A stretch of DNA of 64,000 bases, from the NCBI GenBank assembly GCA_964414985.1, contig CAYPXA010000002.1:2710-66709 (forward strand), given 5' to 3'. Below are positions 1-38,302 of this stretch, piece after piece. Every line of letters starts with the position of its first letter. Positions within the stretch are counted from its first letter, which is position 1. The position numbers and the translations under genes are program-made. The DNA is from an uncultured Methanosarcinales archaeon. GTDB taxonomy: Archaea; Nanobdellota; Nanobdellia; Woesearchaeales; JAGWAF01. A model generated the notes under the pieces. That model was given only the letters and a program-made list of their open reading frames with translations, made no database searches and was not told the DNA's origin.

Positions 1-3000
1 GAAATTTCTGAAGAGCCTGCTGCTGAAGAGCCATTATTTGAGGTGCAGGAATTGCCTGAAACACAGCCAGAACAGCAGTATTCTGCGCAGGCAACAACAA
101 TAGCTTCATGCCCATACACAATCAGCTCATCTGGAGATTATGACCTTTCTGCAGACTTGTCAACTACCGGAACATGCATTACTATCAGCATTGCAAATGT
201 AAGCCTTGACTGCAAAGGGTATAAACTTAGGGGAGATTATAGTGGAACCGATTATGGAATCTATTCAACTACAAGCACAGCAGACAATATCACAATCAAA
301 AACTGCATGATTGCAAATTTTAGCACAGGAATTTATGCAAATTCAGCTACACAGGACACATGGTATATCTACAATAATTCAATAAAAAGAATGATTCAGC
401 ATGGAATCTACACAGTTGGAGACAAATTCTACATTGAGAACAACACAATAAACAACACAGGGCTTTCATTATCATATTATGGCATTTATTTTGGAGGGAC
501 TAATGCAGCTTACAGATCCAGGATTATCAACAACAGCCTTTCATCAGTAGGAACAGGAATCTATGTGAGAGGCAGCTACCACCAGATTGAAAGAAACAAG
601 ATTAAAACTTTTGCAGTAAAGGGAATAAATATGGATGGAACTTATGGCGCAGACAGAAGCAACATAACCTCTAATTTTGTAGAAAACGGACCAAGCAGTA
701 ATGTAGGAATTTATGTATACCCCAACGCAGACTACAACAGGATAATCAACAATACTGTAAAAAATGTAGGTATTGGAATTCAGGCATACAGCAGCTACAG
801 CCAGATACATAACAACACAGTATACAACATTTCCTCAAGTTATGGGCTGATTATTGATGGGGACAGGAACAACATAACTTCAAACAAAATTGAAAAAACT
901 ACATCTGGTATTGGGACCAAGTGGGGCATTTATTTAAGCGGGGCTTCAGATTATCTCCGGATTATTAACAACACAATAAAAAATTTCAATGACGGAATTT
1001 ATAATTATGGAAGCTACAACCAGATACACAATAACCGCATATACAACATTTCTAATTTATATGGCCTGCATGTATATCCCGGGAGCAGAAACAACATAAC
1101 CGGCAATATTATAGATGGCATGACTGGAACAGGGGCAGCTTATGGAATTTATCTTTCTTCTTCAAATTATAACAGATTAATAAACAATACAGCCCAAAAA
1201 CTGAAAAAATTTGGGCTGGGCATAATTGGCAGCAGCCATACCTATCTTTCAAACAACACAATAGAAAATGCAACATTTGGAATTGATTTAGGGGATATAA
1301 CATCCTCAAGTGCGGTATCAATCTTTAACATAACCACCGATGGCCAGACAAACAGGATTAATGGGAAATACCTTTACTGGCTAAGCAAAGAGCAGAACAA
1401 GGTTTATGATTTCAATAACATAAGCATGCTTGCCTGCACATATTGCAATAATATCACCTTAAAAGAAACCTTGATTTCAAACAACTCGCATGCGGTTATA
1501 TTCTATAACACCTCTAATTCTGTTATTAAGAATATTAATCCTAATGGAATCCTTCGTGGAAATATAATTGTTTTTAACGGAAGCAACGTAAGCATTGAAA
1601 ATGTGAATATCACCGGAAATATTACTTATTCAACAAGTTATGGCATACTTGCAAAATGGGTAAGCAGGTTAAGCATAAAAAATACGAGTGTCTCAAAAAC
1701 ATTCTATGGATACTATTTGTATGATTTAAAGGATTATTTTACTTTTTCTGAATCAACGCTAAAAGACTGCATCTCTAACAACCAGGCTTATGACTTTTAC
1801 ATGCTCAGTTCAAGTTCAAAGCATGGACTTATCAGAAACAGCCAGTTTTATGAAAGAGCCAGTATTGCGTCCGGAATTAATATGACTATCTATAACAACA
1901 CATTTAATGAAAGCGATCCCGGTGAAAATTATGCTCACTCTTTTGAGTTTAATGGCAAAGAAAGCAAAGTCTACAACAATACTTTTTATTCTTTGAAGGG
2001 CAGGGGCATGTCTTTTACAGACATAGAAAACACTGAGGTATTCAATAACACAGTCTTTAAGGCAGGGGATAGCACGGCAGATGACTGCATTTACATTAAT
2101 GCTGCAAGCAGCAACGCCAAGATCTACAACAACACTTTCAAGAACTGCGGAGACATGGGCATATATCTTTACAACAGCAACCCTGCAGTTGGAGTATTAA
2201 TCCAAAATAACACAGTGCAAAATTTTGGAACTGGAGTTTCAACAGAAGCAAATGGATACGGAATTTTTATTTCATCAGTAAACAAAGCAAAAGTTATCGG
2301 AAACAAAATACAAACAGGAGATTCATGCTATTGGATAAGAAACTCCCAAAATATTTACTTTTCAGGAAACAACTGCAGTTCAACATCAAGAGGATTTACT
2401 TTTTATGGATCTTCGACCATCCACAGCCAGTTTAACATAACAACAAACGGCCAGACAAACCTGATAAACGGAAAATATCTGTACTGGCTTCAGAAAGAGC
2501 AGAACAAAGTTTATGATTCCAGCAATATAAGCATGCTTGCATGCATCGGCTGCAAAAACATAACTGTCCAAAATTTAAATTTTGCAAACAACAGCCATGG
2601 AATAATCTTCTGGAAAACAAATGATTCAAAAATTGACAACATAACTGTCAAAAAAATAACAGCCCATGAAATTGATGCAAGCGGGATGATCCTTAATTCA
2701 CACAGAGTTCTGGTAAATAATTCTATTTTTGACAATTTAGGAGTAACCGAGAAATATGGAATTTACACTTCAGGAGCTTCATCTCCTGTTCAGAAAAATA
2801 TAACAGTTGCAAACAGCATTTTCAAATATTTTTCATATGGAATTTATGCACCTTATTCAGACCATATGATCATAGACAACTGCACTTTTTTAAATCAGGG
2901 AATTAATGGGATCAATCTTGTTTATGTACAATCGCATAATGCAACGATTAAGAACAGCTTCTTCAACAGCAGCGGCCAGTATGCAGTCAGCATGACTTCC

Positions 3001-6000
3001 TCAAACAATAGTTTGACTGGAAACTATTTTGAAAAAGGAGGGCTTTTGCTTTCCTCTACTTCAGCCAAGAACAAAATCAGGCAAAATAACTTTAACAAGG
3101 TCACATATAGCATTGCATTAAATTTAGGAATAGGGAGTTATAATGATGTTTCGCTAAATAATATTACCAATGCTCCTTCTACAAATGCAGTGAACATTTA
3201 TATTAACGGAGGAAGCTATAACCAAATAACAAACAATAGGATAAACGCCAAAGGTGTTGGAAGCAATATAATCTATTTGGCTTCACTCTCTAATTATAAT
3301 TTAATCAGCGGAAACCTTATCAATGATTCCACCAATGCAGGAATCTACCTTGAAGGCACCAATTACAACAATACACTCTTCAATAATACAATCACAAACT
3401 GTGATGATGACGGAATTTATTTTTATGGAAGCAATGCTTATTATAAAAGGCAGAACAAGATTATTGGGAACATAATCAACAATTCAGGAACAGACGGCTC
3501 TGGAAACGGAATTTACATTTCTGGGTTGGGCACTGTTTCGCCATATTCATACGGCAACAATATTTCAGGAAACATAATCCAGAATTCTGACGATTACGGA
3601 CTAAGCATAAGCTCGCAGTACTTTGACAATAATTACATCTACAACAACAAATTCAACAACACAAACAACGTTTATTCTGTTTCAGGAGCAGTAAACAAAT
3701 GGAATATTACCAAAACTGCTGGAACAAATATTATAGGCGGGCCTTTTATTGGAGGCAACTACTGGGACAATTACACAGGAGTTGATGGAAGCCCGCAGGA
3801 TGGGCTTGGCAGTACAACTTACACAGTTGCATCAGGCGAAATCGACTACCTGCCTCTTGTTGTTTTTATGGATACAAATGCGCCGACATTCAGCAATGCA
3901 GTAAACACTTCAATTGATTTTAGGGAAAACCATAATTTTACTGCGAACATCACAATAACAAACACTGCGCTTGATGCATATATATTCTCTACAAATGCAA
4001 GCGGAAGCTGGGTGAACACAAGTGCAAGGGATATTTCAGGAGCGCAGCATAATGCTTCAGAGCAGGAAAATGTAACAGTTGTTGCAGGAAGCACAGTCTG
4101 CTGGTACTACTGGGCTAATGACACTTCAAACAACAATGCAACTTCATCAACTTACTGCTTCACAGTTGCCGGCAGCGGAGCAAATGCAAACTATTCCAAT
4201 TATGACGGAGCAACAACAGACTTTGACAACCACCCAACTCCGGGAAATATCTACAATGCAATACTCGAAGTTTTAGGCAGCGGAAGAATAACCTGGCCTG
4301 GTCCTGTTAATGCAACAAACCAGGATTTTGACGCAAACATAAACATATCAGACAACTGGATTTTTGTAAACACTTCAGCATTGCACCCATCGTTCAACAC
4401 AAGCGCAAACATCTCGCTTTACGGGCTTTCATGGGCAGACCCAATAATAAAATTCAGCTATGACAATGTGAACTTTTTCATATGCAACGGAACAACAGAC
4501 CCGTCGTGCACTCCTTATTTCTGGAACGGAAGCACTCTTAACTTTACAGTGTCGCACTTTACAGCATTCACAACAGCAGAGGGCACTAATCTCACAATCT
4601 GGGATGACACAGACTACACTGCAAAATACCCTAATGAAAAAGTCAAGTTCTACGCAAACTACACAGATGCTGCAGACGGAAGCTCAATAAACGGAACAGG
4701 AGTATACTGCGAGTTCAGGGAAAACTCAACAGGAAGCTGGTCTTCAAAAGTCAATATGACATTTAATGCAACAAGCGAGCTTTACGAATACAACAAGAGC
4801 TTCAGCACTGGAGGCATATTCTACTTCAATGCAAGCTGCTTCAACAATTTGAGCTATGCAAACCTGACTTTGATTGATTCATTCAACATAACCGGAAACA
4901 GCGCCCCATCAATTGCGCAGGCCAAGGCCAATGCAACATACACAACAAATTACACAAATGAAGACTTGTTCTGCTATGCAAACGCGACAGATTCAGAAGG
5001 AGACAATGTAAGCTATTACGGCTACTGGTACAAGGACGGAGTGCAGCAGTTTTATGAAAGCTATAGCTCAATAAATGACGGCCAGGCAAGCACGAATGAT
5101 GAAGCATTTGCTGTTGCAGTTGATTCTGAAGACAACATTCTGATTGCAGGAAAGCTCGGCGGCAACCTTTCATTTGCAAAATACTATCCCAACTCAACTT
5201 TAGCTTGGTCTAAAACACTTAAGCGGGGCTCATATTCAGAAGAGGCAAAAGGGGTTGCTGTAGATTCTAATGATAACATCATCCTTACAGGAAAAAGGTC
5301 GGCAGGCACCAGCTTGGATTTATGGCTTCTGAAATTTGACAAAAACGGAAACCACATCTGGAATATTACAAATGGGGATTCAGGCTCGCTTCAGGATTTT
5401 GGAAATGCTGTTGCAATAGGCCCGGGGAACAGCATTTATGTTGCAGGAAAAAAGACTGACACTATACGAAGCAATTCTGAAATGTGGATTTTGAAATACG
5501 ATTCAAGCGGCAGCCTTTTGTGGAACAAGCTTTTTACAAACTATAATAATGATACTGAGGGAATGGGCATAGCGGTAGACAGCTATGGAAATGCATTTGC
5601 TGCAGGGTATGTATATGTCGGGCCTGGCAATTCACTTTTTGCAGTTGTTAAGTACAACTCTTCAGGAAGCCAGGTATGGAACACAACTTTTGGGGGTTCA
5701 GGAACAGAATCTGCTAAAAGCATAGCTCTTGACAATGCAGGAAATATTTATGTTGCAGGCCTTACAGGCTCATTCGGAAACGGAAGCTCATCATACAAGG
5801 ATGTATGGACTGTCAAGCTGAACTCTACAGGAAGCATTTTATGGAACAGGACATTTGGAGGGCTTAACTTGAATGATGAAGGAGACGGAATTGCAGTAAC
5901 TTCAGACGGCACCTCTTATGTTTCAGGAATTGCAGACTCGGCTTCAGGAAGCACTGCAAAACTTTTGCTTTTAAGATATAATTCAACAGGAAGCCTGATT

Positions 6001-9000
6001 TCTGCAAAAAAGAGATACTGGTATGGAAATGAAAGAGGATGGGGCATAGCGCTAAACAGCAAAGATGAGCCGGTTATAGGCGGAAGGCTTCTTTCATCTT
6101 CAGGAAGAAGCATGCTCATGCTGAAATACCACGGCTTTGAGCTTCAGAACCAGACAGAAGGAGAGCTTGCACTCATTGACACCATCGGCTCTGGCAACAC
6201 AACAAAGGGAGAAGACTGGTACTGCAGCGTTTCTGCATCTGACGGAGCAGGCGCATCAGGTTACAACTCAAGCAACATTGTGCATATCAGAGATTATTCA
6301 CCTGCTGTAACAAATGTATTTGTCAACTCAACAACTCAATACAACTATTCAAATGAAAACATAACCTGCTATGCAAATGCAACTGACATTGACGGAGACA
6401 ATATTACATATACTGGATTCTGGTTCAAGAATGGAGTCCAGCAGTTCTACGGCTGGAACAGGACTTTTGGAAGGGCATCAAATGATGAGGTTGCATATGG
6501 CATTGCAGTTGACAGCAATTCAAATGTTATTATGGCAGGAGAAAAAGACCCCAACCAGGGCGACCTTTTTACTGTCAAGTTTGATTCTCAAGGAAACTAC
6601 CTTTGGAATGTGACAGAGGATCCTTCAGGCTCTTCAGGACATGATGTTCTAAAAGATGCTTCTGTTGATTCGGAAGATAATGTAGTTGTTGCAGGAATGT
6701 CTACAAGCAGCTCGAACTGCGAGAGGATTTGGGTTGTAAAATACAATTCTTCAGGCGCAAAGCTGTGGAACAACACTCTTTATACAGGAGCATGCACAAC
6801 AGGATATTTGGAGACAAGCGCAGAAAGTGCTGCAATAGGGCCTAACATGATTGCTGCTGCAGGCACTATCCAAAACAGCACTTTAAGGAATATGCTTACT
6901 GTTGTTTACAACTCAAGCGGCAGCCTGCTCTGGAACAGGACAAAAGACTTCAACGGCAACAAGGATGATGCGACTGGAGTTGCAGTTGACAGCCAGGGCA
7001 ATGTATTTGTTGTGGGAATCACCAGCGCAGGAAACAACCAGGAAAACCCCAACATGACTCTGGTTAAGTACAATTCAACAGGCGCTGAAAAATGGGCAAA
7101 AATGTGGCCCAAAGCAAATGCTACTGGAAACTCAATTGTGCTTGATGAAGAAGGAAACTTAATTGTTGTTGGAAAAATATTCCTCCCAGGCAAGACCAGG
7201 GTGCTTGCAGTAAAATTCAACAGCTCCGGTTCAGAGATTTGGAACAGCTCTTACAACACAAGCTCTGAAGAAGTCTATGGCACAGATGCTGCTATCAGCC
7301 CTGAAGGCAGCATAATAATCTCTGCAACTTCAGGATTGGTTCTTGGAGGTGGCGTCGGCGGCTTAGCTCTTTCATTTGTTGAAACTGACAGCGATGAAAT
7401 TGGGATGCACGACTTTAATGTTATTTCAGTCTATCCAAACGGAACAAAGATTTGGAGCTCTTATTTTGGGACATTGCAGGATGACTTTGCAGAAGGCATT
7501 GCAGTTGATGATGAAGGCAGGATTTTTGCTGCAGGCTACACAAATGCAACAGACCCTAATTATTACGACTTAATGATTTACACTATTTATGGAATCAGGC
7601 TGGAGAACAACACGCAGGGTGTGCTTGCAAACGTCTCAACTATTACTTCAAATTACACAACTGCTGGAGACAACTGGAGCTGCTGGATTTCAGGATATGA
7701 CGGAGAAGTGCTGGGAGATTATGCAATGCGCAATAATCTGACAGTAAGGCCAAATGCTGTAGGCACTATTGGAAATGCAACAATCTTATTCCCTACAGGG
7801 AACATTGAAGTCAACCAGAGCCAGACTTTTGTTGTTAACGCAACTATTTATTGCACAGGAGACCCTGGCGGAGTGTGCACAAACCTCGGCGCAACTCTTG
7901 ACCCTCTGCAGAATGTTGCAAACCTCACAGGCCCAACTGATTATATTCAGGATGTGTATGCAGATGAGGATTACATTTATGCAGCAACAGACTGCAACAG
8001 CAACTGCGATTCACGAATTTACATGTGGCACAAGAACCTTACTTATTACACTATGCTGGGCCAGTCGTCAAACGGCCTGCAGGCAGTCTATGCTGATGAA
8101 AAATACATTTATGGAGGCGGCAGGTCAAGAGTGCTTCACATCTGGAACAGGACAGACTCTTCAACTCCTTTTGCATGGATTTACAACTCTTCAAATCTTG
8201 GGGGAAGCATTGCAAGCATAATCTCAGATGAAAATTATATTTATGCAAGCACAATGTGGGGTGCAATATCCCCCAGAATCAGGGTTTTCAACAAGACAGA
8301 CAGTCAGTTCAGGAATCTTTACAACCTGACAGGTGCTTCAGACTTTGGAAGAAGAATCACCCAGGACAACAATTCGCTTTATGTAGGCAGCATGGACTGC
8401 ACAGTCTATATCTACAACAAAAGCAATTTTGCACAGTCTGCAACAACACTTGCTGCTGATGCAGGGTGCGACGACATTATGGGAATTGATGTGGATGACA
8501 AATATATTTACATCACTGGAAGGCTTTCAGCGAATTGGGAAGGGTTTATGCAGGTTTTCAATAAAACAACGCATTCCCAGGTTTTCTACTGGAACGACAC
8601 CAACAATTCTTACGGCAACCCTTCATCTTACTATATGGGCATGGATATTCACAAAGGCGATGATTACTATACCTATCAGGGAGGATTTGATGACTGGTAT
8701 ACTGACGGATGGGTTATGCAAATCAACAAAACCGGATGGTCAATTGAAGACGTGTTTGATGCGCCGTTTGCCCAAGTCAAGAGCGTCTACTGCGATTCTG
8801 ACTGGCTGTATGCAGCTACTCAATACAACTGGACTAATGGCACAGTCATGATTTTCAACAACTCATGCGGAGGAGCTCAAGCCTTGCCAAACCCAATCAC
8901 AATCAGCCCAATAAACATAACTCCTTCAGACATTGGAAAGAACACAACCATAAACTGCATTGCGAATGTCACGTCTGCAACAACTTCAATCAGCTATGTC

Positions 9001-12273: not shown

Positions 12274-12310
12274 TGAATTCAAGTTGAATCAAAATTAACC
12301 AAAAAAGGTT

Positions 12311-12334
12311 TAGTGTGTATCTATACACACACTA
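12311..12334. promoter_or_regulatory. Inverted repeat (TAGTGTGT/ACACACTA, or GTGTGTAT/ATACACAC in a second register) upstream of the RHH gene
   Basis: The palindrome was read directly. It lies between the giant ORF stop (12273) and the ATG at 12367. Confidence 0.45.
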
Positions 12335-12366
12335 AAAATAATCATAATAAAAATAATCAGAACAAC

Positions 12367-13998: not shown

Positions 13999-14095
13999 CT
14001 CTTTGCCTGAAATCTCCCTCCTGCATATATAAATTTTATGATTTTGGTGATGTGCATAAAATAAAGGCCAGCCGGAATTGAGTTCTGGGAAATTT

Positions 14096-14330: not shown

Positions 14331-14332
14331 CT

Positions 14333-18220: not shown

Positions 18221-18228
18221 TGCTAATT

Positions 18229-27800: not shown

Positions 27801-30800
27801 ATTATTGGAACATAACAAGCCTTGCTGCATCCTGGTACAACGGAACTTTTGCAAATCAGGGATTATACATAAAGCCGGCAACAGAGCAGGCAGGAACAAC
27901 AAACCTCCTCAAGAGGTTCTATAGTTCTGATTATATTACAGACATAACTCTAAGGCCTAAGCTGAACATAACATGGATGGACATAACGCCTCCAAATGTA
28001 ACTCTAAATTATCCTCCTGCAAATTTTGTAAACACAACAAGCGGCCAGAATATTAATTTCAACTGCTCTGCAACAGACAATGTCAATCTCACAAACATCT
28101 CTCTTTACATCACAAACAGCCAGAACCTTTCATTCAGCCTTAATCAGACTTCATCAATAACAGGAACAGCAAATGAATCAACTTGGACTGTTTACCTTGG
28201 AGCAGGAAACTACACCTGGAACTGCAAAGCATATGACACTCAAGGATTATATGACTGGGGAATAAACAGGACAATTAAGCTGACTCCAATGATGGACAAT
28301 ACTCCTCCATCAGTAATAATCACAAGCCCGCTGAATGACACTTTGTTCAACCAATCCTCAAACATAAGCATAAAGGCAAATGTGACTGATGATTATGGAG
28401 TAAGCACTGTCTTTGCAAATGTGACCTGGGACAGTGCTTATGAAACAATAACGCTTTCTTATAATGGAACAAGCGGATTGTGGGAAGGAGTATTCACAAA
28501 CACCACATTTATAGGATTTTACAACATAACCATATGGGCAAATGACACAAGCAGCAACATAAACAATACAGAATATGTTTCAGTTAGGGTTGGAAAGTAC
28601 AAGATAAAAGGATACATAACCAATTCAAACTATTCAAATGTGCCGTCTGCAGTCTACCTGTACAACCTGTCAGGAGCGCTTCTCGCCCAGGACAATGAAG
28701 TTTATGAGTTTTTCATGGACCAGGGCAAGATGTATAATCTAAGGGTTGTGCCTTCAGCAGGAAGCCTTAAGGAATTGTATTTCTTCAATGCAACTGTTTC
28801 AGCAGATGTCATAAACTTCACAAGGCTGGAAGACACAAACAACAGCATAGCATCAAGGCCTTACTATGACTTCAACTGGACAGAGCTGGTTTCATGGCTG
28901 CCGCATCCTAATCTTGAGTTCAGCTATGTGAGGCTCAATATGACTTACGGCGCAGGCTCAAACCTTTCACTGTTTAAGTGCGCAGCGTGGGACTTTGACA
29001 GCCAGAACTGCACAAATCCCCAAAACTGGACTGTAATTTCACAGATAGCTGACGGGCCTTCATACATACTTTATAATTTCACAAAAGGAGACCCTGCAGT
29101 AGGAGCAGGCCCAGGAGACCAGATTCCAACAACAACATTGAATTATCCGCCAGACAATTACGTGAACAGCACAGCAAGCCCTGCAAATGTAACATTCAAC
29201 TGCTCTGCTTCAGACACAACAGGAACAAACAAGGGCATAGTCAACATCAGCCTTTACATAACAAATTCAAACAATGCATCATTCAGCCTTAACCAGACTT
29301 ATTACAGCCCAACAAACGGCACAACACTGACAGGAATTTTCAGCTTGCTGCTCGGAACAGGAAACTATACCTGGAACTGCATTGCTTATGACCTTGGAGG
29401 AAACTATGACTGGGCAGACCAGAACAGGACTTTGAAAGTGAATTACACTTCAATGGACAATACTGCTCCGTCAGTAATACTTGTAAGCCCCACTCCAGGC
29501 CAGAACTTCAACCAGACAAACTATGTGCTTATTGCAGTAAACGCAACAGACGATTATGCAGTTGACACTGTCCTTGCAAATGTTACCTGGGATTCAACAT
29601 ACCAGCAGATTGCGCTTGTCTACAACAGCGGAACAGGCCTGTACGAGGCAAACTTTACAAACACAACTTATGTAGTTTCAATTCCTGAAAGGTACAACAT
29701 AAGCATTTTTGCAAACGATACTTCAGGAAATGTAAACAATTCCATCACTGGATACTTCTATGTGAATGACATTACTCCGCCTTACATCAGCATAATCCAG
29801 CCTGCAAACAACTCGAACTATGCCCTTAACCAAAACGTTTCAATCAGCGTTAATGTAACAGACTATTATTATGACAATGTAAATGCTGTTTATGCAAACA
29901 TCACCTGGAGCGGAGGAACCCAGACAATATCTCTTACAGAAACAGGAAACACCCAGATTTTCACAGGAACTTTCACTAATACAACTGCATTCGGCATTTA
30001 CAACATTACGGTTTTTGCAAACGACACATCTTCAAACAGCAACACTAAGAAAGGCTACTTTAATGTGATACAGGCAACAGTAATTATTTCAGGAATAACC
30101 TGCTCGCTGACTGAATCTCCGCAGGTTGTTGAGTCTGGAGAAAAGATACTGTTCCAGGGAGACTTCTCTTACAGCGACGGAAAACCTGCAGCGCAGGCAA
30201 ATGTAAGCCAGGCAAACATAACTATCTACAGGGTAAACAGCACAAACACAACAATAGTGCACACAAGCACAATGGCGTTCCTCCAGAGCGGAATATGGTA
30301 TTACAACTGGGATGCAGGAGCTTATGAAAATGCAAACTACATGGCAGTTGCAAATGTAAAGACAAATGCTGTTCCTCCAGGATATGCATCCTGCTCTGCA
30401 TTGTTCACAATTTCAGGAAGAGGCGTTTTCAAGGTTCTTGGAATAAGCCCGGACCTCACAAATGTAAACCAGACTGTCAAGCTTGGAGTTGAAGTCACTT
30501 TCAATGGAGAGGATGTTGACAGCTCAAAAATTACAAATCCTGAACTTTGGGTTGCAAAAGTAAACGGCTCAACGCAGCACTACAACAGCTCAACAGGGCT
30601 TTCAGTAGCTGACGGCCTGATTTATCTTGACGGCCAGTTCAATGAAACAGGAGTATACTATCTCAACTGGAGCTTCACATACTACAACAGGACAAAAACT
30701 GCAAAGGAAATTGTTGTTGCAAAAGACTGGGATGAAAAATTAAGCAACCTGTCAATGAACAGCGAAGTATACCAGCTTGTGCTTGAGAACAAGCAGAGGC

Positions 30801-32548: not shown

Positions 32549-32641
32549 ACCGCAATAGTTAAGTTTATATACCAAAAAAGAACAATGCACAGGATACAAT
32601 AATATTTCGCATATTGCTATTATTAAAAAAAAGGTGAGCAA

Positions 32642-34855
32642 ATGAAAAATATCAGCAGTCTACCAAAGATTTTAACATTCTTTATTCTGGCATTTATTTC
32701 AGCGGCATCAGCATTTGCAGCAGGCGAAATAGTGCAGACAGCTGACCCTATTAATTATTGGGATGCAGCAAACCATACTGTTTATGTAACAAACAACGGC
32801 AACCAGTCAGTAAACGTGACTATTGCAATTCCTTCAGGATTCACATGGGTTTCAGGAGGCAATCCATGCACCCAGTCAGGCTCAAACATACAGTGCATAC
32901 TTGCTGCATCAGCCACAGGAACATACATTGTCCAGTCTCCAGGAACTTCAGCTGCAGAATACCAGACAAACAAGTTCATAATCACAACAAACAATTCATA
33001 CACTGGAAACAATGTCTCAATGCTTAGGATACAATGCTCAGAGATATTCCACACATTGGTTGAATTCGGAAGGGGCAGGGGCAATTATTTCTACAACAGC
33101 AATTCAGGAGCTGCAGGCTCAGGCCAGACAGAAACAGGATGCGCCTACCTTCCAAGCAGCTCGTTTGTCGAGCTTAATTTCCTCCATAAAACATACAATA
33201 TCAAGCAGTACTTCAATGTTGTTGCAAACGCATACAACGCATCTTACACATGCACTTACCCAAATGACACTATAGTCAGGCAGCACCTTGACACAAGCAT
33301 TTTAAGGAGCAGCGTCTGGACAGTTGATTTTGCAATCGACGAAATCGGCGGCTCCTGGGAAAGGTTTGGCTACATCGGAATGCAGTTTGATTCAGGAGAC
33401 TATGCAGTAGGCCAGAACATCACAATAAACTGCACAGACATACAATATTATCTTCCTGCTGCAGGCGGCAACATAAGCTGCGGAGAAGACTCATTCACCC
33501 TTGAGTTTAGGGACAGGGAGCCATTCAATGCAACAGCAACAGCATCATCAACTATATATAACGGAACCCAGGAAGTCCTTATTACTTATACAATTACAAA
33601 TATTGAGCAGTACACAGCAAGCGATGTAATGATACAGATAGAGGCTCCTCAATACGCCCAGTTCATAGGCACAAGGGCAGAGCTTTGGGGAACAGCCCAG
33701 GACGTTTATGTGCTTGAAGCAAGCGACTTCCTGCCAGGCGAATCAACATCAGTTACGCTTGTTGCAAGGTTCAACACAAGCACTGCTCCTGCAATGACTT
33801 CGCTTAACCTTACTGAAGGAATAAGCATACAATATGTTACATGCTGGGAGTACAATGCATACAATCCTGCAGAATACATACAGGACCTTTACGCTGTTGG
33901 AACAGGCACAGTGAACATGGCCCAAAGCTCGCAGATAACCAATTTTATTGATGTCCTCAACCAGATATACAACCTGACTGTAGTCATCAACAGGACAACA
34001 ACGCAGATAAACTCAACAGTAAACCAGATTTACAATTTGAGCCTGATAATCAACAACACAGTGTACAGGATAAATGCAACTGTAACACAGATAAACAATA
34101 CAGTAACTTCAATTTATGCAGACACCCAGCAGATTCTTGACCTGCTGAACTGCAACGGCACTGTCGACACTCCAATCTGCAATTATGTTGCAAACATCAA
34201 TGCAACAGTAACACAGATATGGAATTTGACAAATGTGATTAATGCAACAACAGCAAACATTTGGAACAATGTGGTTTACATAAACAACACTGTTAATGCG
34301 ATTTCAGGCAATGTCTCAATTATCCTGAACAACACCTACACGCTGATGGATTTGATAAACTGCACAAACATAACAGCGCAGTGGCAGAACTCAACATGCA
34401 ACAGGCTTAACAGGATAGAGAATTATTCAGTGCAGATACTCAACAATATTACCTACATATGGGGCAACTACACTGCAGCAGACATACTGAATGCAATAGG
34501 CAATATCAGCGTTAACATAAGCTCAAGCCAGATTACAGAGATACTTACAGAAATCCAGAGGCTAAGGCAGTTTGATGAGGAGCTTGTATTCCTTGTAACA
34601 GACGCGTTTAACATGCAGCAGAGGGCTACAGACGCAGCTTCAAGAGGCGATATGAGCACTGCAATGCAGGAGCTCAATAATGCAAACAGCAACCTCAAGG
34701 CAGCTGCAGACAGGATTGAGACTCTCAAGCAGCAGGAAACAGAAACCGGAAAGTGGTGGATGTGGCTGCTTGTCGGAACACTTGTTGCAGTCCTTTCAAT
34801 CTACCTTTTCCAGAGGGTTCCTGAAGACAGCGAAGAGCCCAGGATTAAGCAGTAA
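32642..34855 (+). CDS. Anchored surface protein (737 aa): signal peptide, globular N-domain, sequon-rich coiled-coil stalk, C-terminal TM
   Basis: Signal ...ISAASAFAAGE. Repeats of the NxTVTQIxN type. Pre-anchor motif ELVFLVTDAFN, then the hydrophobic WWMWLLVGTLVAVLSIYLF. Confidence 0.8.
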   Translation: MKNISSLPKILTFFILAFISAASAFAAGEIVQTADPINYWDAANHTVYVTNNGNQSVNVTIAIPSGFTWVSGGNPCTQSGSNIQCILAASATGTYIVQSPGTSAAEYQTNKFIITTNNSYTGNNVSMLRIQCSEIFHTLVEFGRGRGNYFYNSNSGAAGSGQTETGCAYLPSSSFVELNFLHKTYNIKQYFNVVANAYNASYTCTYPNDTIVRQHLDTSILRSSVWTVDFAIDEIGGSWERFGYIGMQFDSGDYAVGQNITINCTDIQYYLPAAGGNISCGEDSFTLEFRDREPFNATATASSTIYNGTQEVLITYTITNIEQYTASDVMIQIEAPQYAQFIGTRAELWGTAQDVYVLEASDFLPGESTSVTLVARFNTSTAPAMTSLNLTEGISIQYVTCWEYNAYNPAEYIQDLYAVGTGTVNMAQSSQITNFIDVLNQIYNLTVVINRTTTQINSTVNQIYNLSLIINNTVYRINATVTQINNTVTSIYADTQQILDLLNCNGTVDTPICNYVANINATVTQIWNLTNVINATTANIWNNVVYINNTVNAISGNVSIILNNTYTLMDLINCTNITAQWQNSTCNRLNRIENYSVQILNNITYIWGNYTAADILNAIGNISVNISSSQITEILTEIQRLRQFDEELVFLVTDAFNMQQRATDAASRGDMSTAMQELNNANSNLKAAADRIETLKQQETETGKWWMWLLVGTLVAVLSIYLFQRVPEDSEEPRIKQ

Positions 34856-35049: not shown

Positions 35050-35115
35050 CATTCACTTGCGCTTCAGTTAAGGTGTTTGGATGCTGTTAAGCCTAAACAG
35101 AAACCTTTAAATAGG

Positions 35116-35166
35116 ACTACATACTAAGTAATCATAAATAGGATATATACATATTAAGTATGTAGT
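35116..35166. promoter_or_regulatory. 10-bp inverted repeat (ACTACATACT/AGTATGTAGT) flanking a TATA-like box, plus the direct repeat CATAYTAAGTA 30 nt apart
   Basis: Read directly: arms at 35116-35125 and 35157-35166, GGATATATAC at 35141-35150, direct repeats at 35120-35130 and 35150-35160. Confidence 0.5.
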
Positions 35167-35192
35167 TGTTCGACGAGAGCTGGAGAGGCATC

Positions 35193-35342
35193 TTGAAAGA
35201 GAGGATTACAGTAACAATCGACAAGGACCTTCTGAAATGGGTAGACGAAGGAGTCAAGGAAAAGGTTTTTGCCAATAGGAGCCACGCTCTTGAGTTCTTA
35301 ATCAAGAAAAAGATGAGGGAGGATGAAGCCAATGAAAAGTAA
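35193..35342 (+). CDS. Ribbon-helix-helix (CopG/NikR-N-like) small DNA-binding protein, about 49 aa (TTG start proposed)
   Basis: The translation KERITVTIDKDLLKWVDEGVKEKVFANRSHALEFLIKKK fits RHH. GGAGAGG lies 4 nt upstream of the TTG. It overlaps the start of the next gene. The start codon is uncertain (an in-frame TTG at 35166 is also possible). Confidence 0.5.
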   Translation: MKERITVTIDKDLLKWVDEGVKEKVFANRSHALEFLIKKKMREDEANEK

Positions 35343-37209
35343 GCCTCTCCTCTGGATGATTGCTGCATTTGCAATGCTAATCCTGACTGCATTCACAGCT
35401 TCTGCGCTCGAATACTACTTTTCCTACAGGATGAACTTTGAGCCAGGCGCACAGGAATACCACCTGCAAAAAATCAGGTTTTCAGGAAACTTTACAATGA
35501 CTTTGCCGAGCAGTTTTACTTTCACAAACAGCACAATGTCCTACAGCCAGAGCGGAAGCAACTACACCTGGAGCTCATCAAACTCGACAGAAATGCATTA
35601 CACAATAAGGTCTCCGTCAAGCTGCACAGAAGGAGACTTATACAAATCGCAATTGTACGAGAGCGGAAACAAAGTGGATGAGTTTGTCTATGTCTGCATT
35701 GATGACTCCAAAATAGTAGACTACAAGGTTGAGTACGGCCACGGATGCGGAAACTACCTTGCAGAAGACGAGCCTTACATCTCAAATGAGCCTGCTGCGC
35801 TCTTCAACCTTGTAAGGGTCTGGAACATCGGAAGCTACCTTGACCCTGATGAAGACGCCCTTAATGCAGAAATCAGCTGCTTTTACGAGGATTACCCTGT
35901 GAGGACTTACGGCAGGGTTGAAGTAGGCTATCCTCCAAACGGAGTTAACGGCACATTCCTGTGGGACATAATCTACGGCGGATACTGGTTCAGGATAGGA
36001 GTTCTTAGCCAGGAAGTGTCAGGAAAAAGCATAGGCAGCACCTACAGCGTGAACTGCACAGAGCTAACCTACAACTTCAGCCACCAGAGGGTTGTTGCAT
36101 CTTTCCCCAACTACAGCCTTGAAGCAAGGTCAGTATCGCCATTAACCAAGAACACCACAACAATCGGAGGAAAGGACAGGGTTGTGATAACAAACAATGA
36201 AAAATATCCAGTGTACAGCCTTACACTCAACTTTGTTGCAGACGGATACATAGAATCCAATTTTGTAGGCATATTGGGGCCTGGAGAATCAGCAATTTTC
36301 TTTGCAGACCCAGGCACAAACACAACTGCAACATTCATACCCAGCTGGCAGAGAAACTGCTTCAGCCCTGTCTATTACATGCAGACTCTTTCCAACACAA
36401 GCAGTGCAGTAAACCAGGCGCCTTCATACACCAATATTCCAAGCCAGGCATGGGCTGAAAACACATCAAACAATAATGCATTTGACCTTGACAATTATTT
36501 TTCAGACGCTGAAAACAATACGCTCACATTCGGCTACACAGGAAACGTGAACATCACAGTGTCAATAAACAGCACAACGCACGAAGTGAGCTTTTCGCAG
36601 CCTGCAGGCTGGACTGGAATTGAATATGTCAAATTCTATGCGAATGACGGCAACAGCACAACCTACAGCAACAATGTAACTTTAGTTGTGTTTCCTGCAA
36701 CTGTAGTGCAGAACGCTTCAGGAACAACAACAGTCATAGAATACAAGTCCAAGAAAAAGACTGTTTATGTCTATGTCAACCAGACTCAGAATGTAAGCGT
36801 TTCAGAGCCATTATGCAAAGAGCTTTGGCTCTGCTCTGAATGGTCTGAATGCATGCCTGATGAATCAGGAAGCAAAGTTCTTTTCAGGACACGAAGCTGC
36901 GAGGAAGTGAACAACTGCCTAATTTCAATGTTCAGCCCTCCTGAAAGCGAGCCCTGCGAAGTTGAGTGCGAGTCATGCGGGCCAGGCATAGAGATTCCAG
37001 GAGTGATAGATGGACAGCCTGAACTCCAAAAGTGCAGGCTCTGCACAATAATCCCAGCATCGCTGCTGATACTGCTCATAATCCTGCTTATTTTGATTTT
37101 AACAGACAGGCAGAATGAAAAAGAGTCAGCTTACCGCGAAGATTACCGGAAGCTGCATGAAAATTGCAAAAATGAGGTGGAAAAATGGAAAAGAAAGGAA
37201 AATCTATAG
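35332..37209 (+). CDS. Anchored surface protein, paralog of 32642-34855 in the N-domain; Cys-rich TSP1-like stalk and C-terminal TM
   Basis: Signal MKSKPLLWMIAAFAMLILTAFTASA (the track start 35323 is 3 codons upstream). Shared blocks with the paralog: QSGSN, VE[FY]G[RH]GxGNY, NAxxxCxYxxxxVR. TM helix IIPASLLILLIILLILILT. Confidence 0.8.
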   Translation: MKSKPLLWMIAAFAMLILTAFTASALEYYFSYRMNFEPGAQEYHLQKIRFSGNFTMTLPSSFTFTNSTMSYSQSGSNYTWSSSNSTEMHYTIRSPSSCTEGDLYKSQLYESGNKVDEFVYVCIDDSKIVDYKVEYGHGCGNYLAEDEPYISNEPAALFNLVRVWNIGSYLDPDEDALNAEISCFYEDYPVRTYGRVEVGYPPNGVNGTFLWDIIYGGYWFRIGVLSQEVSGKSIGSTYSVNCTELTYNFSHQRVVASFPNYSLEARSVSPLTKNTTTIGGKDRVVITNNEKYPVYSLTLNFVADGYIESNFVGILGPGESAIFFADPGTNTTATFIPSWQRNCFSPVYYMQTLSNTSSAVNQAPSYTNIPSQAWAENTSNNNAFDLDNYFSDAENNTLTFGYTGNVNITVSINSTTHEVSFSQPAGWTGIEYVKFYANDGNSTTYSNNVTLVVFPATVVQNASGTTTVIEYKSKKKTVYVYVNQTQNVSVSEPLCKELWLCSEWSECMPDESGSKVLFRTRSCEEVNNCLISMFSPPESEPCEVECESCGPGIEIPGVIDGQPELQKCRLCTIIPASLLILLIILLILILTDRQNEKESAYREDYRKLHENCKNEVEKWKRKENL

Positions 37210-38003
37210 GCATCATCTCCATCAAGGGGGGTGTCGGCAAGACTACAACAGTCTCAAACCTGGGAGCTGTTCTTGCAAAGAAGTTCGGCAAAAAGGTGCT
37301 GATAGTTGATGCAAACTTCAGCGCGCCAAACCTTGCGCTGCATCTTGGCTTCATAAACCCTGAAGTTACGCTTGCAGACGCATTGATGGACAAGGTGGAC
37401 ATAACTGAGGCAATATACGAGCATGATTTGGGATTCCACATACTGCCGACATCGCTTGTGCACAGGAAGCTAAACCCATTCAAGCTAAGGGCAAAGCTGA
37501 ACAAGCTGAAGAGCCAGTACGATGTGATACTGATTGACTCTTCGCCAACACTTAACGAGGAGATGCTTTCAACAATCGTTGCATCAGACCAGCTTTTTGT
37601 GGTTACATCGCCGGACATTCCGACTTTGAGCTGCACAATGCACGCAATAAAGGTTGCAAAGAGGAAGAAAACCCCAGTTGCAGGAATGATAATCAACAAG
37701 GTAAGGAATAAGAACTTTGAGCTCAAGGCGCAGGACATCCAGGACAGCACAGGCGTTCCTGTAGTCGCAATAGTGCCTGACGATGTTAAAGTGCTCCACG
37801 CCCTTGCAATGTCGACGCCTGCATCTGTATTCACTCCGAAAAAGGATTTTGCAGTCGAGTACCACAAGCTTGCAGCATCAATTGCAGGAGAGGAATATAA
37901 TGACAGCAGGCTGATGAGTAGGCTGAAGAACTTCATTGCTCCTGAAAGCTCGCTCCAGCACATGAACAGGCAGGTGCTCAAGGAAGAGTCAAAGAAGAGG
38001 TGA
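37185..38003 (+). CDS. MinD/ParA-family P-loop ATPase
   Basis: Deviant Walker A SIKGGVGKTTT and Walker B-like VILIDSSP. A possible amphipathic C-terminal segment (LMSRLKNFI). Overlaps the upstream gene by 25 nt. Confidence 0.85.
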   Translation: MEKKGKSIGIISIKGGVGKTTTVSNLGAVLAKKFGKKVLIVDANFSAPNLALHLGFINPEVTLADALMDKVDITEAIYEHDLGFHILPTSLVHRKLNPFKLRAKLNKLKSQYDVILIDSSPTLNEEMLSTIVASDQLFVVTSPDIPTLSCTMHAIKVAKRKKTPVAGMIINKVRNKNFELKAQDIQDSTGVPVVAIVPDDVKVLHALAMSTPASVFTPKKDFAVEYHKLAASIAGEEYNDSRLMSRLKNFIAPESSLQHMNRQVLKEESKKR

Positions 38004-38302
38004 TTTGCTTGGCAAGCAGGCTGAAAGAGGTTGTTGACCTTCTTGAATACGAAGAGCTCTTGAAGGTGAAGAATGACCTTAACAAGGGAGGCAACGGAGT
38101 CAGGATACTGATAGACAACAGGCTCAAGGAGGAAACCAAAAAGAGGAATGAGTTCTGCGCTGTCTGCGCTTCAAAGATAGACTCATCAAGCGAAACAAGG
38201 TTTTCAATGACAATCGGGCCTGAAGACTTTGAGAGGAAGGTTTCGTTCTGCGCAATGGACTGCCTGCAGTATTTCCTTGAGGAGATGAAGAAGAGGGACT
38301 GA
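38000..38302 (+). CDS. Small protein (100 aa) with a TRASH/YHS-like CxxC...CxxxC motif
   Basis: The GTG start overlaps the MinD stop (GTGA). Motifs CAVC and FCAMDCLQYF. Confidence 0.55.
   Translation: MICLASRLKEVVDLLEYEELLKVKNDLNKGGNGVRILIDNRLKEETKKRNEFCAVCASKIDSSSETRFSMTIGPEDFERKVSFCAMDCLQYFLEEMKKRD

What the first reader, a model, noticed from the sequence alone, without database searches (positions are those of the whole stretch)
1..38302. 38-kb cell-surface island: two proteins over 4,000 aa, two paralogous anchored proteins, mini-regulators and a MinD-type ATPase
About 60% of the window encodes four signal-peptide or TM-anchored, sequon-dense extracellular proteins.

- All four are on the plus strand, and the transcription units are tightly coupled.
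- One unit runs AbrB-like, giant 2, then the 737-aa protein.
- The next runs RHH, the 626-aa paralog, MinD/ParA, the CxxC mini-protein, then the P-type ATPase.
- Giant 1 is followed by an RHH gene and a secreted esterase.
- The combination points to a regulated and possibly spatially organised adhesion or host-contact apparatus, rather than isolated S-layer genes. It includes huge adhesin-like ectodomains (beta-helix, beta-propeller, Ig/FN3 arrays, DNRLRE-type domain), long cytoplasmic tails, a positioning-type ATPase and dedicated tiny DNA-binding proteins.

Symbiotic small-genome archaea are known to carry very large surface proteins. This particular gene combination is not one I can map to a described system.
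Basis: partly seen in the sequence, partly recalled or inferred. Interest (0 to 1): 0.7.

Follow-up and report, generated by a model that had tools for sequence, protein, structure and literature searches.

The report
Conserved Woesearchaeota surface-protein cassette with mini-repressors
Part of the reported 38-kb "island" is a gene cassette shared by many Woesearchaeota (tiny uncultured archaea): a tiny repressor gene followed by three membrane-anchored, sugar-coated surface proteins that probably build the cell's outer coat, while the other genes listed are ordinary neighbours.

Summary
The genes are real, but the 38 kb are not one apparatus. The window comes from a Woesearchaeota (DPANN) archaeon.

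**Conserved core, 18.5-37.2 kb**
- It runs: AbrB-type mini-regulator, giant type-I glycoprotein (G2, 4578 aa), p737, a second mini-regulator, p628.
- This order recurs in 11 of 12 Woesearchaeota genome loci and in three metagenome contigs.
- p737 has a SlaB-like build: three beta-sandwiches, a sequon-rich helical stalk and a C-terminal TM helix.
- p628 shares p737's head. G2 and p737 share a roughly 70-aa helix next to the membrane.
- The AbrB promoter carries two ATTAGTACTAAT palindromes 33 bp apart, conserved in five divergent genomes.

**Not part of the core**
- MinD, the CxxC protein and the Ca-ATPase adjoin the cassette only in close relatives. Elsewhere the CxxC gene sits beside the ATPase or RNA-processing genes.
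- G1 is a separate mosaic giant.
- A hydrogenase operon on the minus strand interrupts the "island".

**Best reading:** an autoregulated, S-layer-like envelope cassette with a hypervariable outer giant. An adhesion role for the giant is not excluded. It is a new variant of a known kind, of moderate interest.

The parts
18533..18602 (+). Promoter and operator of the cassette: BRE/TATA AAACATTTATATA (18533-18545), then two copies of the 10-bp palindrome TTAGTACTAA (18560-18569 and 18593-18602), 33 bp apart and upstream of the AbrB start codon.
   Evidence: Sequence. The same TATA plus two ATTAGTACTA(A/T)T sites at 33-bp spacing lie upstream of the AbrB orthologs in L003, L004, L006 and L013. In 626 kb of window plus loci the 9-mer occurs almost only in these pairs.
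18639..18815 (+). AbrB/MazE-type mini-regulator (58 aa). It is the leader cistron and overlaps the G2 start by 4 nt.
   Evidence: Pfam MazE_antitoxin E = 1.7e-3 and TIGR01439 AbrB E = 4.5e-3. The L013 ortholog passes the Pfam cut-off (26.1 against 24.7 bits). Orthologs sit directly upstream of the giant gene in 5 of 7 loci that have upstream sequence.
18812..32548 (+). G2, a giant type-I membrane glycoprotein (4578 aa). It has a signal peptide and a variable Ig-rich ectodomain (Big_7, Big_13, CBM96, 95-aa tandem repeats at 24026-25897). A conserved membrane-proximal module follows (about aa 3760-4070), then a TM helix (aa 4071-4101) and a 477-aa basic cytoplasmic tail.
   Evidence: In relatives only the C-terminal 300-600 aa are conserved (33-52% identity), while total length ranges from about 1200 to more than 3200 aa. 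Independent assemblies match at 100%.
30797..31006 (+). Juxtamembrane helical module of G2 (aa about 3996-4065, motif EFSEEEIFLVTDAVNSM), homologous to the equivalent module of p737.
   Evidence: BLASTP E = 1e-13 at 38% identity. hhalign of A4 against A1 gives 98% probability, E = 1.2e-13. The motif occurs in 20 of 561 ORFs, all of them giant or p737-type cassette proteins, in both genes wherever both are complete.
32564..32571 (+). TTTATATA box 71 nt upstream of the p737 start codon, followed by a GGTGA ribosome-binding site. It is a probable internal promoter.
   Evidence: TATA-like boxes lie in the same intergenic spacer in L004, L005, L012, L013 and L015. Function is inferred.
32642..34855 (+). 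p737: signal peptide, three beta-sandwich domains (aa 30-430), a roughly 265-aa sequon-rich alpha-helical stalk (aa 435-700), a TM helix (aa 705-722) and a short tail. This is the SlaB-like architecture.
   Evidence: AF2 model with pLDDT 85-93 in the head. Homologs are 36-63% identical, nearly all Woesearchaeota or Nanoarchaeota. About 50 full-length representatives at 50% clustering.
35101..35166 (+). Promoter and operator of the second unit: AAACCTTTAAATA (35101-35113), then the inverted repeat ACTACATACT / AGTATGTAGT (35116-35125 and 35157-35166).
   Evidence: The same TATA plus TACATACTnAGTATGTA sites are conserved upstream of the RHH2 orthologs in L015 and L016.
35166..35342 (+). RHH2, a ribbon-helix-helix mini-regulator. 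It is probably 49 aa starting at TTG 35193. It is the leader cistron and overlaps the p628 start.
   Evidence: NikR N-terminal RHH domain E = 6e-8. PDB NikR E = 0.014. The 49-aa orthologs in L015 and L016 are 65% identical.
35323..37209 (+). p628 (625-628 aa): signal peptide, a three-beta-sandwich head paralogous to that of p737, an Ig-like (Big_9-like) domain, a Cys-rich CxxxWxCxxWxxC module, a TM helix and a short tail.
   Evidence: (head pLDDT above 90). Orthologs lie downstream of p737 orthologs in all 13 loci that extend that far.
1..12273 (+). G1, a separate giant surface glycoprotein of at least 4090 aa, open at the window edge. It has a beta-helix/NosD region, SBBP propeller repeats, Ig-like modules, a Cys-rich pre-TM module like that of p628, two or three TM helices and a roughly 100-aa tail. 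It is not part of the conserved cassette.
   Evidence: Homologs are mosaic (8-56% coverage), lie in tandem paralog arrays (L054) and lack the RHH and esterase neighbours. The Cys-rich module is shown.
12309..13382 (+). A separate small unit: palindrome TTTAGTGTGT...ACACACTAAA (12309-12336), RHH1 (12367-12543) and, overlapping it by 4 nt, an exported alpha/beta-hydrolase (12540-13382).
   Evidence: An RHH1-like gene (65% identity) with a GTGTGTAT...TACACAC element precedes the p628-type gene in L007. RHH family hits are weak (E = 0.02-0.08).
37185..41058 (+). Clade-specific neighbours, probably co-transcribed from the RHH2 promoter: archaeal MinD-type ATPase (37185-38003), a 4-Cys mini-protein (38000-38302) and a type-II Ca2+-type P-type ATPase (38383-41058).
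   Evidence: The adjacency is conserved only in L015-L017 and L020. In wider relatives the order is beta-CASP RNase - CxxC - ATPase or a KH-domain gene, without MinD. No consensus TATA box lies between 35113 and 41058.
13373..18220 (-). Interrupting block that is not surface-related: two small membrane ORFs, [FeFe]-hydrogenase-like HydA (14333-16006), NuoF-like (16027-17151), NuoE-like (17139-17576), and a 185-aa membrane protein on the + strand (17663-18220).
   Evidence: Translations. In L016 the same hydrogenase genes lie on the other side of the cassette. Trimeric group A3 [FeFe]-hydrogenases are already reported in Woesearchaeota (PMC11606122).

Best explanation
The window comes from a Woesearchaeota (DPANN) archaeon. 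The real unit is a cassette of about 18.7 kb (18533-37209) that encodes three C-terminally anchored, heavily N-glycosylated surface proteins under two tiny autoregulated repressors.

**Shown**
- The order [AbrB-type gene] - [giant] - [p737] - [mini-regulator] - [p628] is conserved across divergent Woesearchaeota.
- The distal ectodomain of the giant is hypervariable in length and content. Its membrane-proximal 300-500 aa are conserved.
- G2 and p737 share a homologous helix of about 70 aa next to the membrane.
- p737 and p628 share a three-beta-sandwich head.
- Each mini-regulator gene is a leader cistron preceded by a TATA box and conserved palindromes specific to its regulator type.

**Inferred**
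- p737 acts like SlaB of Sulfolobales: a coiled-coil stalk anchored in the membrane, holding beta-sandwich heads away from the cell.
- The giant joins the same stalk bundle through the shared helix and forms the variable outer face. That face could act as canopy, adhesin or both.
- p628 is a head paralog with a different, disulfide-rich anchor that completes the layer.
- The AbrB-type protein binds the two ATTAGTACTAAT sites between the TATA box and the start codon and represses its own operon. RHH2 does the same at its palindromes for p628 and whatever lies downstream.

MinD, the CxxC protein and the Ca-ATPase are recent neighbours that may ride on the RHH2 transcript in this sub-clade. G1, RHH1 plus esterase, and the hydrogenase operon are separate units.
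For: **Synteny**
- 11 of 12 genome loci and L015-L017 keep giant - p737 - p628.
- Flanking genes differ or are shuffled between loci. Elp3, the Nsun methyltransferase and the hydrogenase operon sit on different sides.

**Shared modules**
- G2 and p737 helix: BLASTP E = 1e-13 and hhalign 98% probability.
- The motif is found only in giant and p737-type proteins, 20 of 561 ORFs.
- p737 and p628 heads: E = 7e-11, and both AF2 models show three beta-sandwiches.

**SlaB parallel**
- SlaB has three beta-sandwich domains, a long glycosylated C-terminal helix and a TM helix. It is less variable than its larger partner SlaA (PMC10903991).
- Ig-rich, TM-anchored S-layer proteins of about 290 kDa with basic tails exist (bioRxiv 10.64898/2026.08.21.746120).

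**Topology**
- Sequons are enriched 2.4-fold in the ectodomains and absent from the tails.

**Regulation**
- The operator pair is conserved in five genomes whose AbrB proteins are 35-63% identical.
- The RHH2 operator is conserved in three loci.
- Operator sequence changes with regulator type.
- A mini-regulator leads the p628-type gene in 8 of 13 loci, with non-orthologous displacement among RHH2, RHH1-like and DUF2080 proteins.
Against: - There is no sequence or fold match to SlaB or to any solved S-layer protein. Foldseek finds only generic tandem beta-sandwich hits with TM-scores around 0.15. The profile search of the PDB finds only coiled-coil hits.
- All three proteins carry their own TM anchor, unlike SlaA.
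- A giant that varies from about 1200 to 4600 aa is unusual for a lattice-forming protein and fits an adhesin better.
- A dedicated repressor is unexpected for a constitutive S-layer gene.
- No expression, abundance or imaging data were available.
- The family was detected in about 12 species genomes and about 50 clusters at 50% identity. It may therefore cover only part of the Woesearchaeales.
- Physical interaction between the three proteins is not shown.
Confidence: 0.55

Rival explanations
1. The conserved trio is a dedicated adhesion or host-contact complex rather than the general envelope. The giant is a fibrillar adhesin whose variable tip recognises a host or substrate. p737 and p628 are its membrane platform. 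The mini-repressors switch it on upon contact.
For: - The distal part of the giant is hypervariable, while its base is conserved.
- It carries a carbohydrate-binding CBM96 domain and Ig arrays.
- It has dedicated repressors with conserved operators.
- Giant membrane-anchored proteins of other DPANN are interpreted as host-interaction devices (PMC10266531).
Against: - p737 is well conserved for a surface protein (36-63% identity) and has the architecture of an S-layer stalk protein.
- The cassette sits among housekeeping genes.
- No secretion ATPase or VirB4-like domain is present, unlike SPEARE-type giants.
- This reading is not mutually exclusive with the best explanation.
Confidence: 0.25
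2. The whole 1-38302 region is one regulated, spatially organised surface apparatus, in which the MinD-type ATPase and the CxxC protein position the giants through their cytoplasmic tails.
For: - In this genome and its close relatives, p628 - MinD - CxxC - ATPase overlap or abut. No consensus TATA box lies between the RHH2 promoter and the end of the ATPase gene.
- The long (about 470-aa) basic tail of the giant is seen only in the window and in L015, the same sub-clade that has MinD next door.
Against: - MinD, CxxC and the ATPase are absent from the cassette neighbourhood in the more distant loci.
- CxxC homologs travel with the P-type ATPase, a beta-CASP RNase or a KH-domain gene, without MinD.
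- G1 has no conserved linkage to the rest.
- A cytoplasmic hydrogenase operon splits the region.
- Genes in these compact genomes are tightly packed whatever their function.
Confidence: 0.1
3. There is no functional unit. These are unrelated surface-protein genes that remain neighbours through shared ancestry, and the small ORFs are orphan antitoxin-like genes.
For: - AbrB/MazE and RHH folds are typical antitoxins.
- General local synteny (Elp3, Nsun) is also partly conserved.
Against: - The trio persists while its flanks are reshuffled.
- The three proteins share modules pairwise.
- No toxin gene follows any mini-regulator. Instead each overlaps the start of an exported-protein gene.
- The operators are conserved.
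Confidence: 0.07

Closest known systems
SlaA/SlaB (and Saci_1846) S-layer of Sulfolobales; SlaB homolog of Nitrosopumilus
   Same: [quoted passage not shown] It is encoded next to a larger and more variable partner, and a further anchoring component is present (PMC10903991; bioRxiv 10.64898/2026.08.21.746120).
   Different: No sequence or fold match was detected. The stalk is about twice as long (265 aa against 132 aa). The large partner has its own TM anchor and shares a juxtamembrane helix with the stalk protein. The third component is a head paralog with a Cys-rich anchor. The operon is headed by a mini-repressor.
Colossal Ig-rich, TM-anchored S-layer proteins of Thermoproteota (PySLP, 292 kDa)
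   Same: G2 is a very large single polypeptide made of tandem Ig-like domains, with a C-terminal TM helix and a basic cytoplasmic tail.
   Different: G2 is larger (about 500 kDa before glycans). Its distal part is not conserved between relatives. It has a 477-aa tail. It comes with two partner proteins. Homology to PySLP was not tested.
Giant membrane-anchored 'SPEARE' proteins of Nanohaloarchaeota
   Same: These are also giant Ig/FN3-rich, cell-bound proteins in a DPANN lineage, thought to mediate host contact, and an ATPase gene lies nearby (PMC10266531).
   Different: No VirB4/TraG-like ATPase domain or any other Pfam domain is found in the cytoplasmic parts of G1 or G2. The nearby ATPase is of the MinD type and is not conserved in position.
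AbrB/SpoVT-MazE and CopG/NikR-type ribbon-helix-helix autorepressors
   Same: These are single-domain proteins of 49-58 aa with palindromic or repeated sites overlapping their own promoter.
   Different: Here they are not paired with toxins. They are leader cistrons translationally coupled to genes for exported or surface proteins, and different folds replace each other at the same position.
Archaeal MinD homologs (TIGR01969; for example Haloferax MinD4, from my own knowledge)
   Same: Best family hit with E = 1.6e-53, and a deviant Walker A motif KGGVGKT.
   Different: The score is below the curated cut-off (181 against 202 bits). The linkage to surface genes is restricted to one sub-clade. 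No functional data exist.

Membership tests
SlaB-type S-layer stalk/anchor proteins | Signal peptide followed by three N-terminal beta-sandwich (Ig-like) domains | tested here: met
   The AF2 model of p737 shows strands only in aa 30-430, forming three domains with pLDDT 85-93. The same head is seen in p628 with pLDDT above 90.
SlaB-type S-layer stalk/anchor proteins | Long C-terminal alpha-helix (coiled coil) bearing N-glycosylation sequons and ending in a TM helix | tested here: met
   Helices span aa 435-701 and the TM helix aa 705-722. Heptad-like INxT repeats are visible in the sequence. Oligomeric state was not tested.
SlaB-type S-layer stalk/anchor proteins | Encoded next to a larger, more variable outer-layer partner | tested here: met
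   A giant gene lies directly upstream in the window and in 10 related loci (L003-L007, L009, L011-L013, L015). Its length ranges from about 1200 to 4600 aa and only its base is conserved.
SlaB-type S-layer stalk/anchor proteins | Detectable sequence or fold homology to SlaB (PDB 8QOX) | tested here: not met
   SlaB is not among the 50 best Foldseek PDB hits of either model, nor among the 60 best profile hits. The output lists are truncated, so a weak match cannot be excluded.
SlaB-type S-layer stalk/anchor proteins | Forms trimers that hold a 2-D lattice above the membrane | not testable with these tools
   This needs cryo-ET or multimer modelling.
AbrB/SpoVT-MazE swapped-hairpin DNA-binding proteins | Match to the family profile at the curated threshold | tested here: inconclusive
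   The window protein scores 18.7 bits against a cut-off of 24.7 (E = 1.7e-3). The L013 ortholog scores 26.1 bits and passes. The best PDB profile hits, at E = 0.07-0.11, are small archaeal plasmid/virus proteins.
AbrB/SpoVT-MazE swapped-hairpin DNA-binding proteins | Cognate repeated or palindromic operator in its own promoter | tested here: met
   Two ATTAGTACTAAT sites 33 bp apart follow the TATA box in five genomes. Binding itself was not tested.
Ribbon-helix-helix (CopG/NikR N-terminal) regulators | Profile match to an RHH domain, with N-terminal strand plus two helices | tested here: met
   RHH2 matches the NikR RHH domain with E = 6e-8. Its ortholog matches RHH_1 with E = 0.003. RHH1 has only weak hits (E = 0.02-0.08), so RHH1 alone is inconclusive.
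Archaeal MinD (TIGR01969) | Score at or above the curated cut-off, and deviant Walker A motif | tested here: inconclusive
   The score is 181.4 bits against a cut-off of 201.75, though this is the best hit by far. KGGVGKT is present.
SPEARE-type giant proteins of Nanohaloarchaeota | Cytoplasmic VirB4/TraG-like ATPase domain within the giant protein | tested here: not met
   No ATPase domain is found in G1 or G2. The G2 tail has no Pfam hit with E below 0.2.
Type II (Ca2+-type) P-type ATPase | Cation_ATPase_N and Cation_ATPase_C domains, E1-E2 domain, and an NCBIfam equivalog score | tested here: met
   Pfam domains are all present. TIGR01517 scores 547 bits against a cut-off of 507, and TIGR01116 scores 703.0 against 703.4.
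DUF7576 / zinc-ribbon mini-proteins (CxxC gene) | Four invariant Cys residues (CxxC ... CxxxC) and a profile match | tested here: inconclusive
   C53, C56, C84 and C88 are invariant in 14 homologs. DUF7576 scores 23.4 bits against a cut-off of 27. There is no PDB match.

The most novel reading that the evidence does not exclude
In this Woesearchaeota sub-clade the envelope cassette may have been extended into a spatially controlled organelle. The RHH2 transcript would co-express p628 with a MinD-type ATPase. That ATPase would use the unusually long (about 470-aa) basic cytoplasmic tail of the giant as its partner and cluster the giant/p737/p628 complex at one site of the cell, such as a host-contact or division site. 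The adjacent Ca2+ pump would supply the cation for the acidic juxtamembrane helices.
Probability: 0.08. Interest if true: 0.75.

Novelty: new variant of a known kind. Interest (0 to 1): 0.5.

Why it matters
No Woesearchaeota has been cultured, and I found no description of their cell envelope in the papers I searched (four searches in all). All homologs found are annotated as hypothetical proteins.

- **Candidates for imaging and proteomics.** A conserved, recognisable cassette gives concrete candidates for the envelope or host-contact layer. These can be targeted in metaproteomes, cryo-ET and antibody or FISH enrichment.
- **Independent origin of a familiar design.** It suggests that the design of a variable outer protein plus a beta-sandwich/coiled-coil stalk arose outside the Thermoproteota, without detectable homology.
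- **A testable regulatory rule.** Mini-repressors of 49-58 aa act as leader cistrons of surface-protein genes. Their operators are conserved, and different folds replace each other at the same position. Both points can be tested in vitro with two short oligonucleotides and a 58-aa protein.

Tried and rejected
- **Whole-G1 homology search.** It timed out. The C-terminal 900 aa gave only mosaic partial hits, and G1 itself is not in the protein database. The full length of G1 and independent assembly support for it therefore remain unknown. Only a 1.7-kb independent contig covers the esterase.
- **Foldseek.** The p737 model was searched against the PDB and BFVD and the p628 model against the PDB. 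All returned only generic tandem beta-sandwich hits with TM-scores of 0.1-0.2.
- **Profile searches of the PDB.** p737 gave only coiled-coil noise. The CxxC protein gave nothing.
- **Homology between RHH1 and RHH2.** None was detectable.
- **Homology between G1 and G2.** Only weak similarity between shared Ig-like modules.
- **Bacterial sigma-70 and terminator scan.** It is uninformative for an archaeon, with counts equal to the shuffles.
- **Low GC of the first 3.6 kb of G1 as a sign of chimerism or horizontal transfer.** The drop lies mostly in codon positions 1 and 2, so it reflects amino-acid composition. I rejected it as evidence.
- **Rfam.** There is no family for the dispersed 95-nt repeat.

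Full report
**1. What is in the sequence**

- G1 has no stop codon between base 1 and 12273. It is therefore truncated by the window edge, has at least 4090 aa, and its N-terminus is unseen.
- G2 (18812-32548, 4578 aa) has an N-terminal signal peptide, one TM helix at aa 4071-4101 and a 477-aa basic tail.
- p737 and p628 each have a signal peptide and a C-terminal TM helix.

Sequons are strongly enriched in the ectodomains. There are 211 in G1, 227 in G2 and 36 in p737, against shuffle means of 88, 91 and 15 (z = 15.1, 16.8 and 6.6). There are none in the cytoplasmic tails. This fixes the N-out, C-in topology.

Pfam confirms Beta_helix/NosD and SBBP in G1 and Big_7, Big_13 and CBM96 in G2.

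The four proteins cover 47% of the window, not about 60%.

The stretch 13373-18220 is not surface-related. It holds two small membrane ORFs, a minus-strand [FeFe]-hydrogenase/NuoF/NuoE operon and a membrane protein of unknown family.

**2. Is G2 an assembly artefact?**

Independent Logan assemblies from four sequencing runs reproduce 18301-24373, 25924-35016 and 34999-45009 at 100% identity. The only part without independent support is 24374-25923. That is exactly the array of 285-bp tandem Ig-like repeats, whose copies are 63-73% identical. G2 is real, though its repeat number rests on one assembly. G1 could not be checked in this way.

**3. Organism**

Homologs of p737 come almost only from Woesearchaeota or Nanoarchaeota metagenome-assembled genomes. 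The right half of the window holds ordinary archaeal housekeeping genes: L11, Spt5, FtsZ, thermosome, GluRS and Elp3.

**4.

A profile of p737 homologs retrieved 12 loci from species-representative genomes. Eleven of them show the order giant - p737 - p628 as far as the contig allows; the twelfth (L014) ends inside the p737 homolog. In L010 the giant lies inverted on the far side of p628, and in L008 the gene upstream of p737 is a different large surface protein.

The gene upstream of p737 ranges from about 1200 to more than 3200 aa. It matches G2 only in its last 300-600 aa, at 33-52% identity.

A 47-58-aa AbrB-type gene overlaps the start of the giant in the window, L003, L004, L006 and L013. 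An RHH gene takes that place in L007.

MinD, the CxxC protein and the ATPase do not follow p628 in any of these loci, including the five with at least 6 kb of downstream sequence.

Three metagenome contigs from closer relatives do keep the full order p737 - RHH2 - p628 - MinD - CxxC - ATPase - Elp3. In these, MinD is 78% identical, Elp3 70% and p737 39-63%.

A metagenome scan with the CxxC family found 36 loci. At 57-66% identity MinD is upstream. At about 45-49% identity the order is beta-CASP RNase - CxxC - P-type ATPase. At about 32% identity the CxxC gene is followed by a KH-domain gene.

So the extended arrangement is a property of one sub-clade, and the CxxC gene belongs with housekeeping neighbours.

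The homologs of G1 are mosaic. In L054 they lie in a tandem array of paralogs, with no RHH or esterase.

**5. The three cassette proteins are linked by shared modules**

- p737 and p628 share their N-terminal 350-400 aa (E = 7e-11). AF2 models built with alignments show three beta-sandwich domains in both, with pLDDT 85-97.
- In p737 the head is followed by about 265 residues of helix and then the TM helix.
- The conserved base of the giant ends in a helix, [EQ]F[ST]EEE[IV]FL[IV]TD[SA]VNSM. This is homologous to the segment of p737 just outside the membrane, EFDEELVFLVTD[SA]FGLQ. BLASTP gives E = 1e-13 and hhalign gives 98% probability, E = 1.2e-13.
- In 561 ORFs from the window and the loci, this motif occurs 20 times, always in a giant or p737-type cassette protein and in both genes wherever both are complete.
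- p628-type proteins and G1 instead carry a Cys-rich module, CxxxWxCxxWxxC, before their TM helix.

**6. Regulation**

Upstream of the AbrB gene lies AAACATTTATATA, followed by two copies of TTAGTACTAA 33 bp apart. The same layout is present in L003, L004, L006 and L013: a TATA box, ATTAGTACTA(A/T)T, a spacer of about 23 nt, a second ATTAGTACTAAT, then the start codon. The AbrB proteins of these loci are only 35-63% identical to the window protein. In 626 kb of held sequence the 9-mer is otherwise seen only twice.

RHH2 has AAACCTTTAAATA followed by TACATACTnAGTATGTA-type sites, conserved in L015 and L016. RHH1 has a GTGTGTAT/ATACACAC palindrome that recurs upstream of its relative in L007.

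Thus operator sequence changes together with regulator type.

A mini-regulator overlaps the start of the p628-type gene in 8 of 13 loci. It is RHH2 in three of them, RHH1-like in one and a DUF2080 protein in four. This is non-orthologous displacement at a fixed position.

That these proteins bind these sites and repress transcription is inferred, not shown.

p737 has its own TTTATATA box at 32564. No consensus box lies between 35113 and the end of the ATPase gene. MinD, CxxC and the ATPase may therefore be read from the RHH2 promoter in this genome.

**7. Comparison with known systems**

[quoted passage not shown] It forms a trimeric coiled coil and is less variable than its larger partner SlaA (PMC10903991). 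Saci_1846 is a third component, and Nitrosopumilus has a SlaB homolog (bioRxiv 10.64898/2026.08.21.746120). The same preprint shows that an Ig-rich protein of 292 kDa with a C-terminal TM helix and a basic tail can itself be the S-layer.

p737 reproduces the SlaB architecture, and G2 reproduces the 'colossal' type. However, no sequence or fold match to SlaB or to any S-layer protein was found. I therefore claim analogy, not membership.

The giant 'SPEARE' proteins of Nanohaloarchaeota contain a VirB4/TraG-like ATPase domain (PMC10266531). G1 and G2 have none.

**8. Verdict**

- There is a conserved and regulated surface-protein unit, but it is the cassette of about 18.7 kb at 18.5-37.2 kb, not the full 38 kb.
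- It most likely builds the envelope layer. p737 and p628 would form the conserved base, and the giant would form a variable outer face that may also serve adhesion.
- MinD, CxxC and the ATPase are clade-specific neighbours.
- G1 and the RHH1-esterase pair are separate units.
- I put about 0.55 on the envelope-cassette reading, 0.25 on a dedicated adhesion complex, and about 0.1 on the MinD-organised apparatus.
- It is a new variant of a known kind, and the interest is moderate.

Noticed in passing
window 14098-14190, 18261-18353, 45243-45335 (+) and 34955-35050 (-); longer copies at 14098-14330 and 45243-45489: A dispersed intergenic repeat of about 95 nt (up to about 245 nt) whose ends form a stem of 10-11 bp (CATTGCCGC...GCGGCAATG). 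Copies are 66-90% identical. It has no Rfam match and is absent from the related loci. Independent short-read contigs break exactly at these copies, which suggests many copies in the genome. It may be a MITE or a small structured RNA.
   Followed up: partly
window 14333-17576 (-): A trimeric [FeFe]-hydrogenase-type operon (HydA-like 557 aa, NuoF-like 374 aa, NuoE-like 145 aa). It lies on the other side of the cassette in relative L016. Group A3 hydrogenases of this type are already reported in Woesearchaeota (PMC11606122).
   Followed up: partly
L024, L028, L040, L044, L045, L051 (CxxC homolog loci); window 38000-38302: The 4-Cys mini-protein (weak DUF7576 hit; C53, C56, C84 and C88 invariant) is a conserved small gene. 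In wider Woesearchaeota it sits directly downstream of a beta-CASP/RMMBL RNase (about 425 aa) and upstream of either the type-II P-type ATPase or a two-KH-domain (Pno1/Krr1-like) gene. This hints at an RNA-processing or metal-related role unrelated to the cell surface.
   Followed up: partly
L003 16765-16908, L004 13335-13478, L005 4150-4296, L006 13114-13257: A 47-48-aa DUF2080-family protein (MKVEVE.VEEVI.KKVDSYSTSTRIIIPKKYANRKVKVLILK), which passes the Pfam cut-off, overlaps the start of the p628-type gene. In the L005 and L006 sequences examined it is preceded by TACATT/AATGTA palindromes. It occupies the position held by RHH2 in the window.
   Followed up: partly
window 59251-62209 (+): A run of six nucleotide 'house-cleaning' genes in one orientation: NUDIX, HAD hydrolase, MazG, NUDIX, Ham1 (ITPase) and HIT.
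   Followed up: no
window 50700-52982 (+): A 760-aa protein made of about six PAS domains, with no recognisable output domain in Pfam.
   Followed up: no
window 59012-59100 and 62599-62723 (+): Two tRNA genes longer than normal (89 and 125 nt) score as tRNA in Rfam. ARAGORN finds only the first, with an odd four-base anticodon call, and misses the second. These are probably intron-containing archaeal tRNAs.
   Followed up: no
window 1-3600 (G1 beta-helix part): GC content is 34-37% against 42-46% in the rest of G1. The drop is mainly in codon positions 1 and 2, so it mostly reflects amino-acid composition rather than foreign origin.
   Followed up: yes
L003 10757-15346: In this 636-kb Woesearchaeota contig the p737-type gene is duplicated in tandem. 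My ORF caller read the two copies as one 1529-aa ORF, and a 1557-aa representative, P0120, shows the same doubling.
   Followed up: no
window 47200-48387 (-) and 42992-44191 (-): ftsZ lies 9 kb from the MinD gene on the opposite strand, with its own TTTAAATA box. A 399-aa ORF between Elp3 and the Nsun methyltransferase has no Pfam match, and the L016 relative carries a DUF502 gene in that position instead.
   Followed up: no
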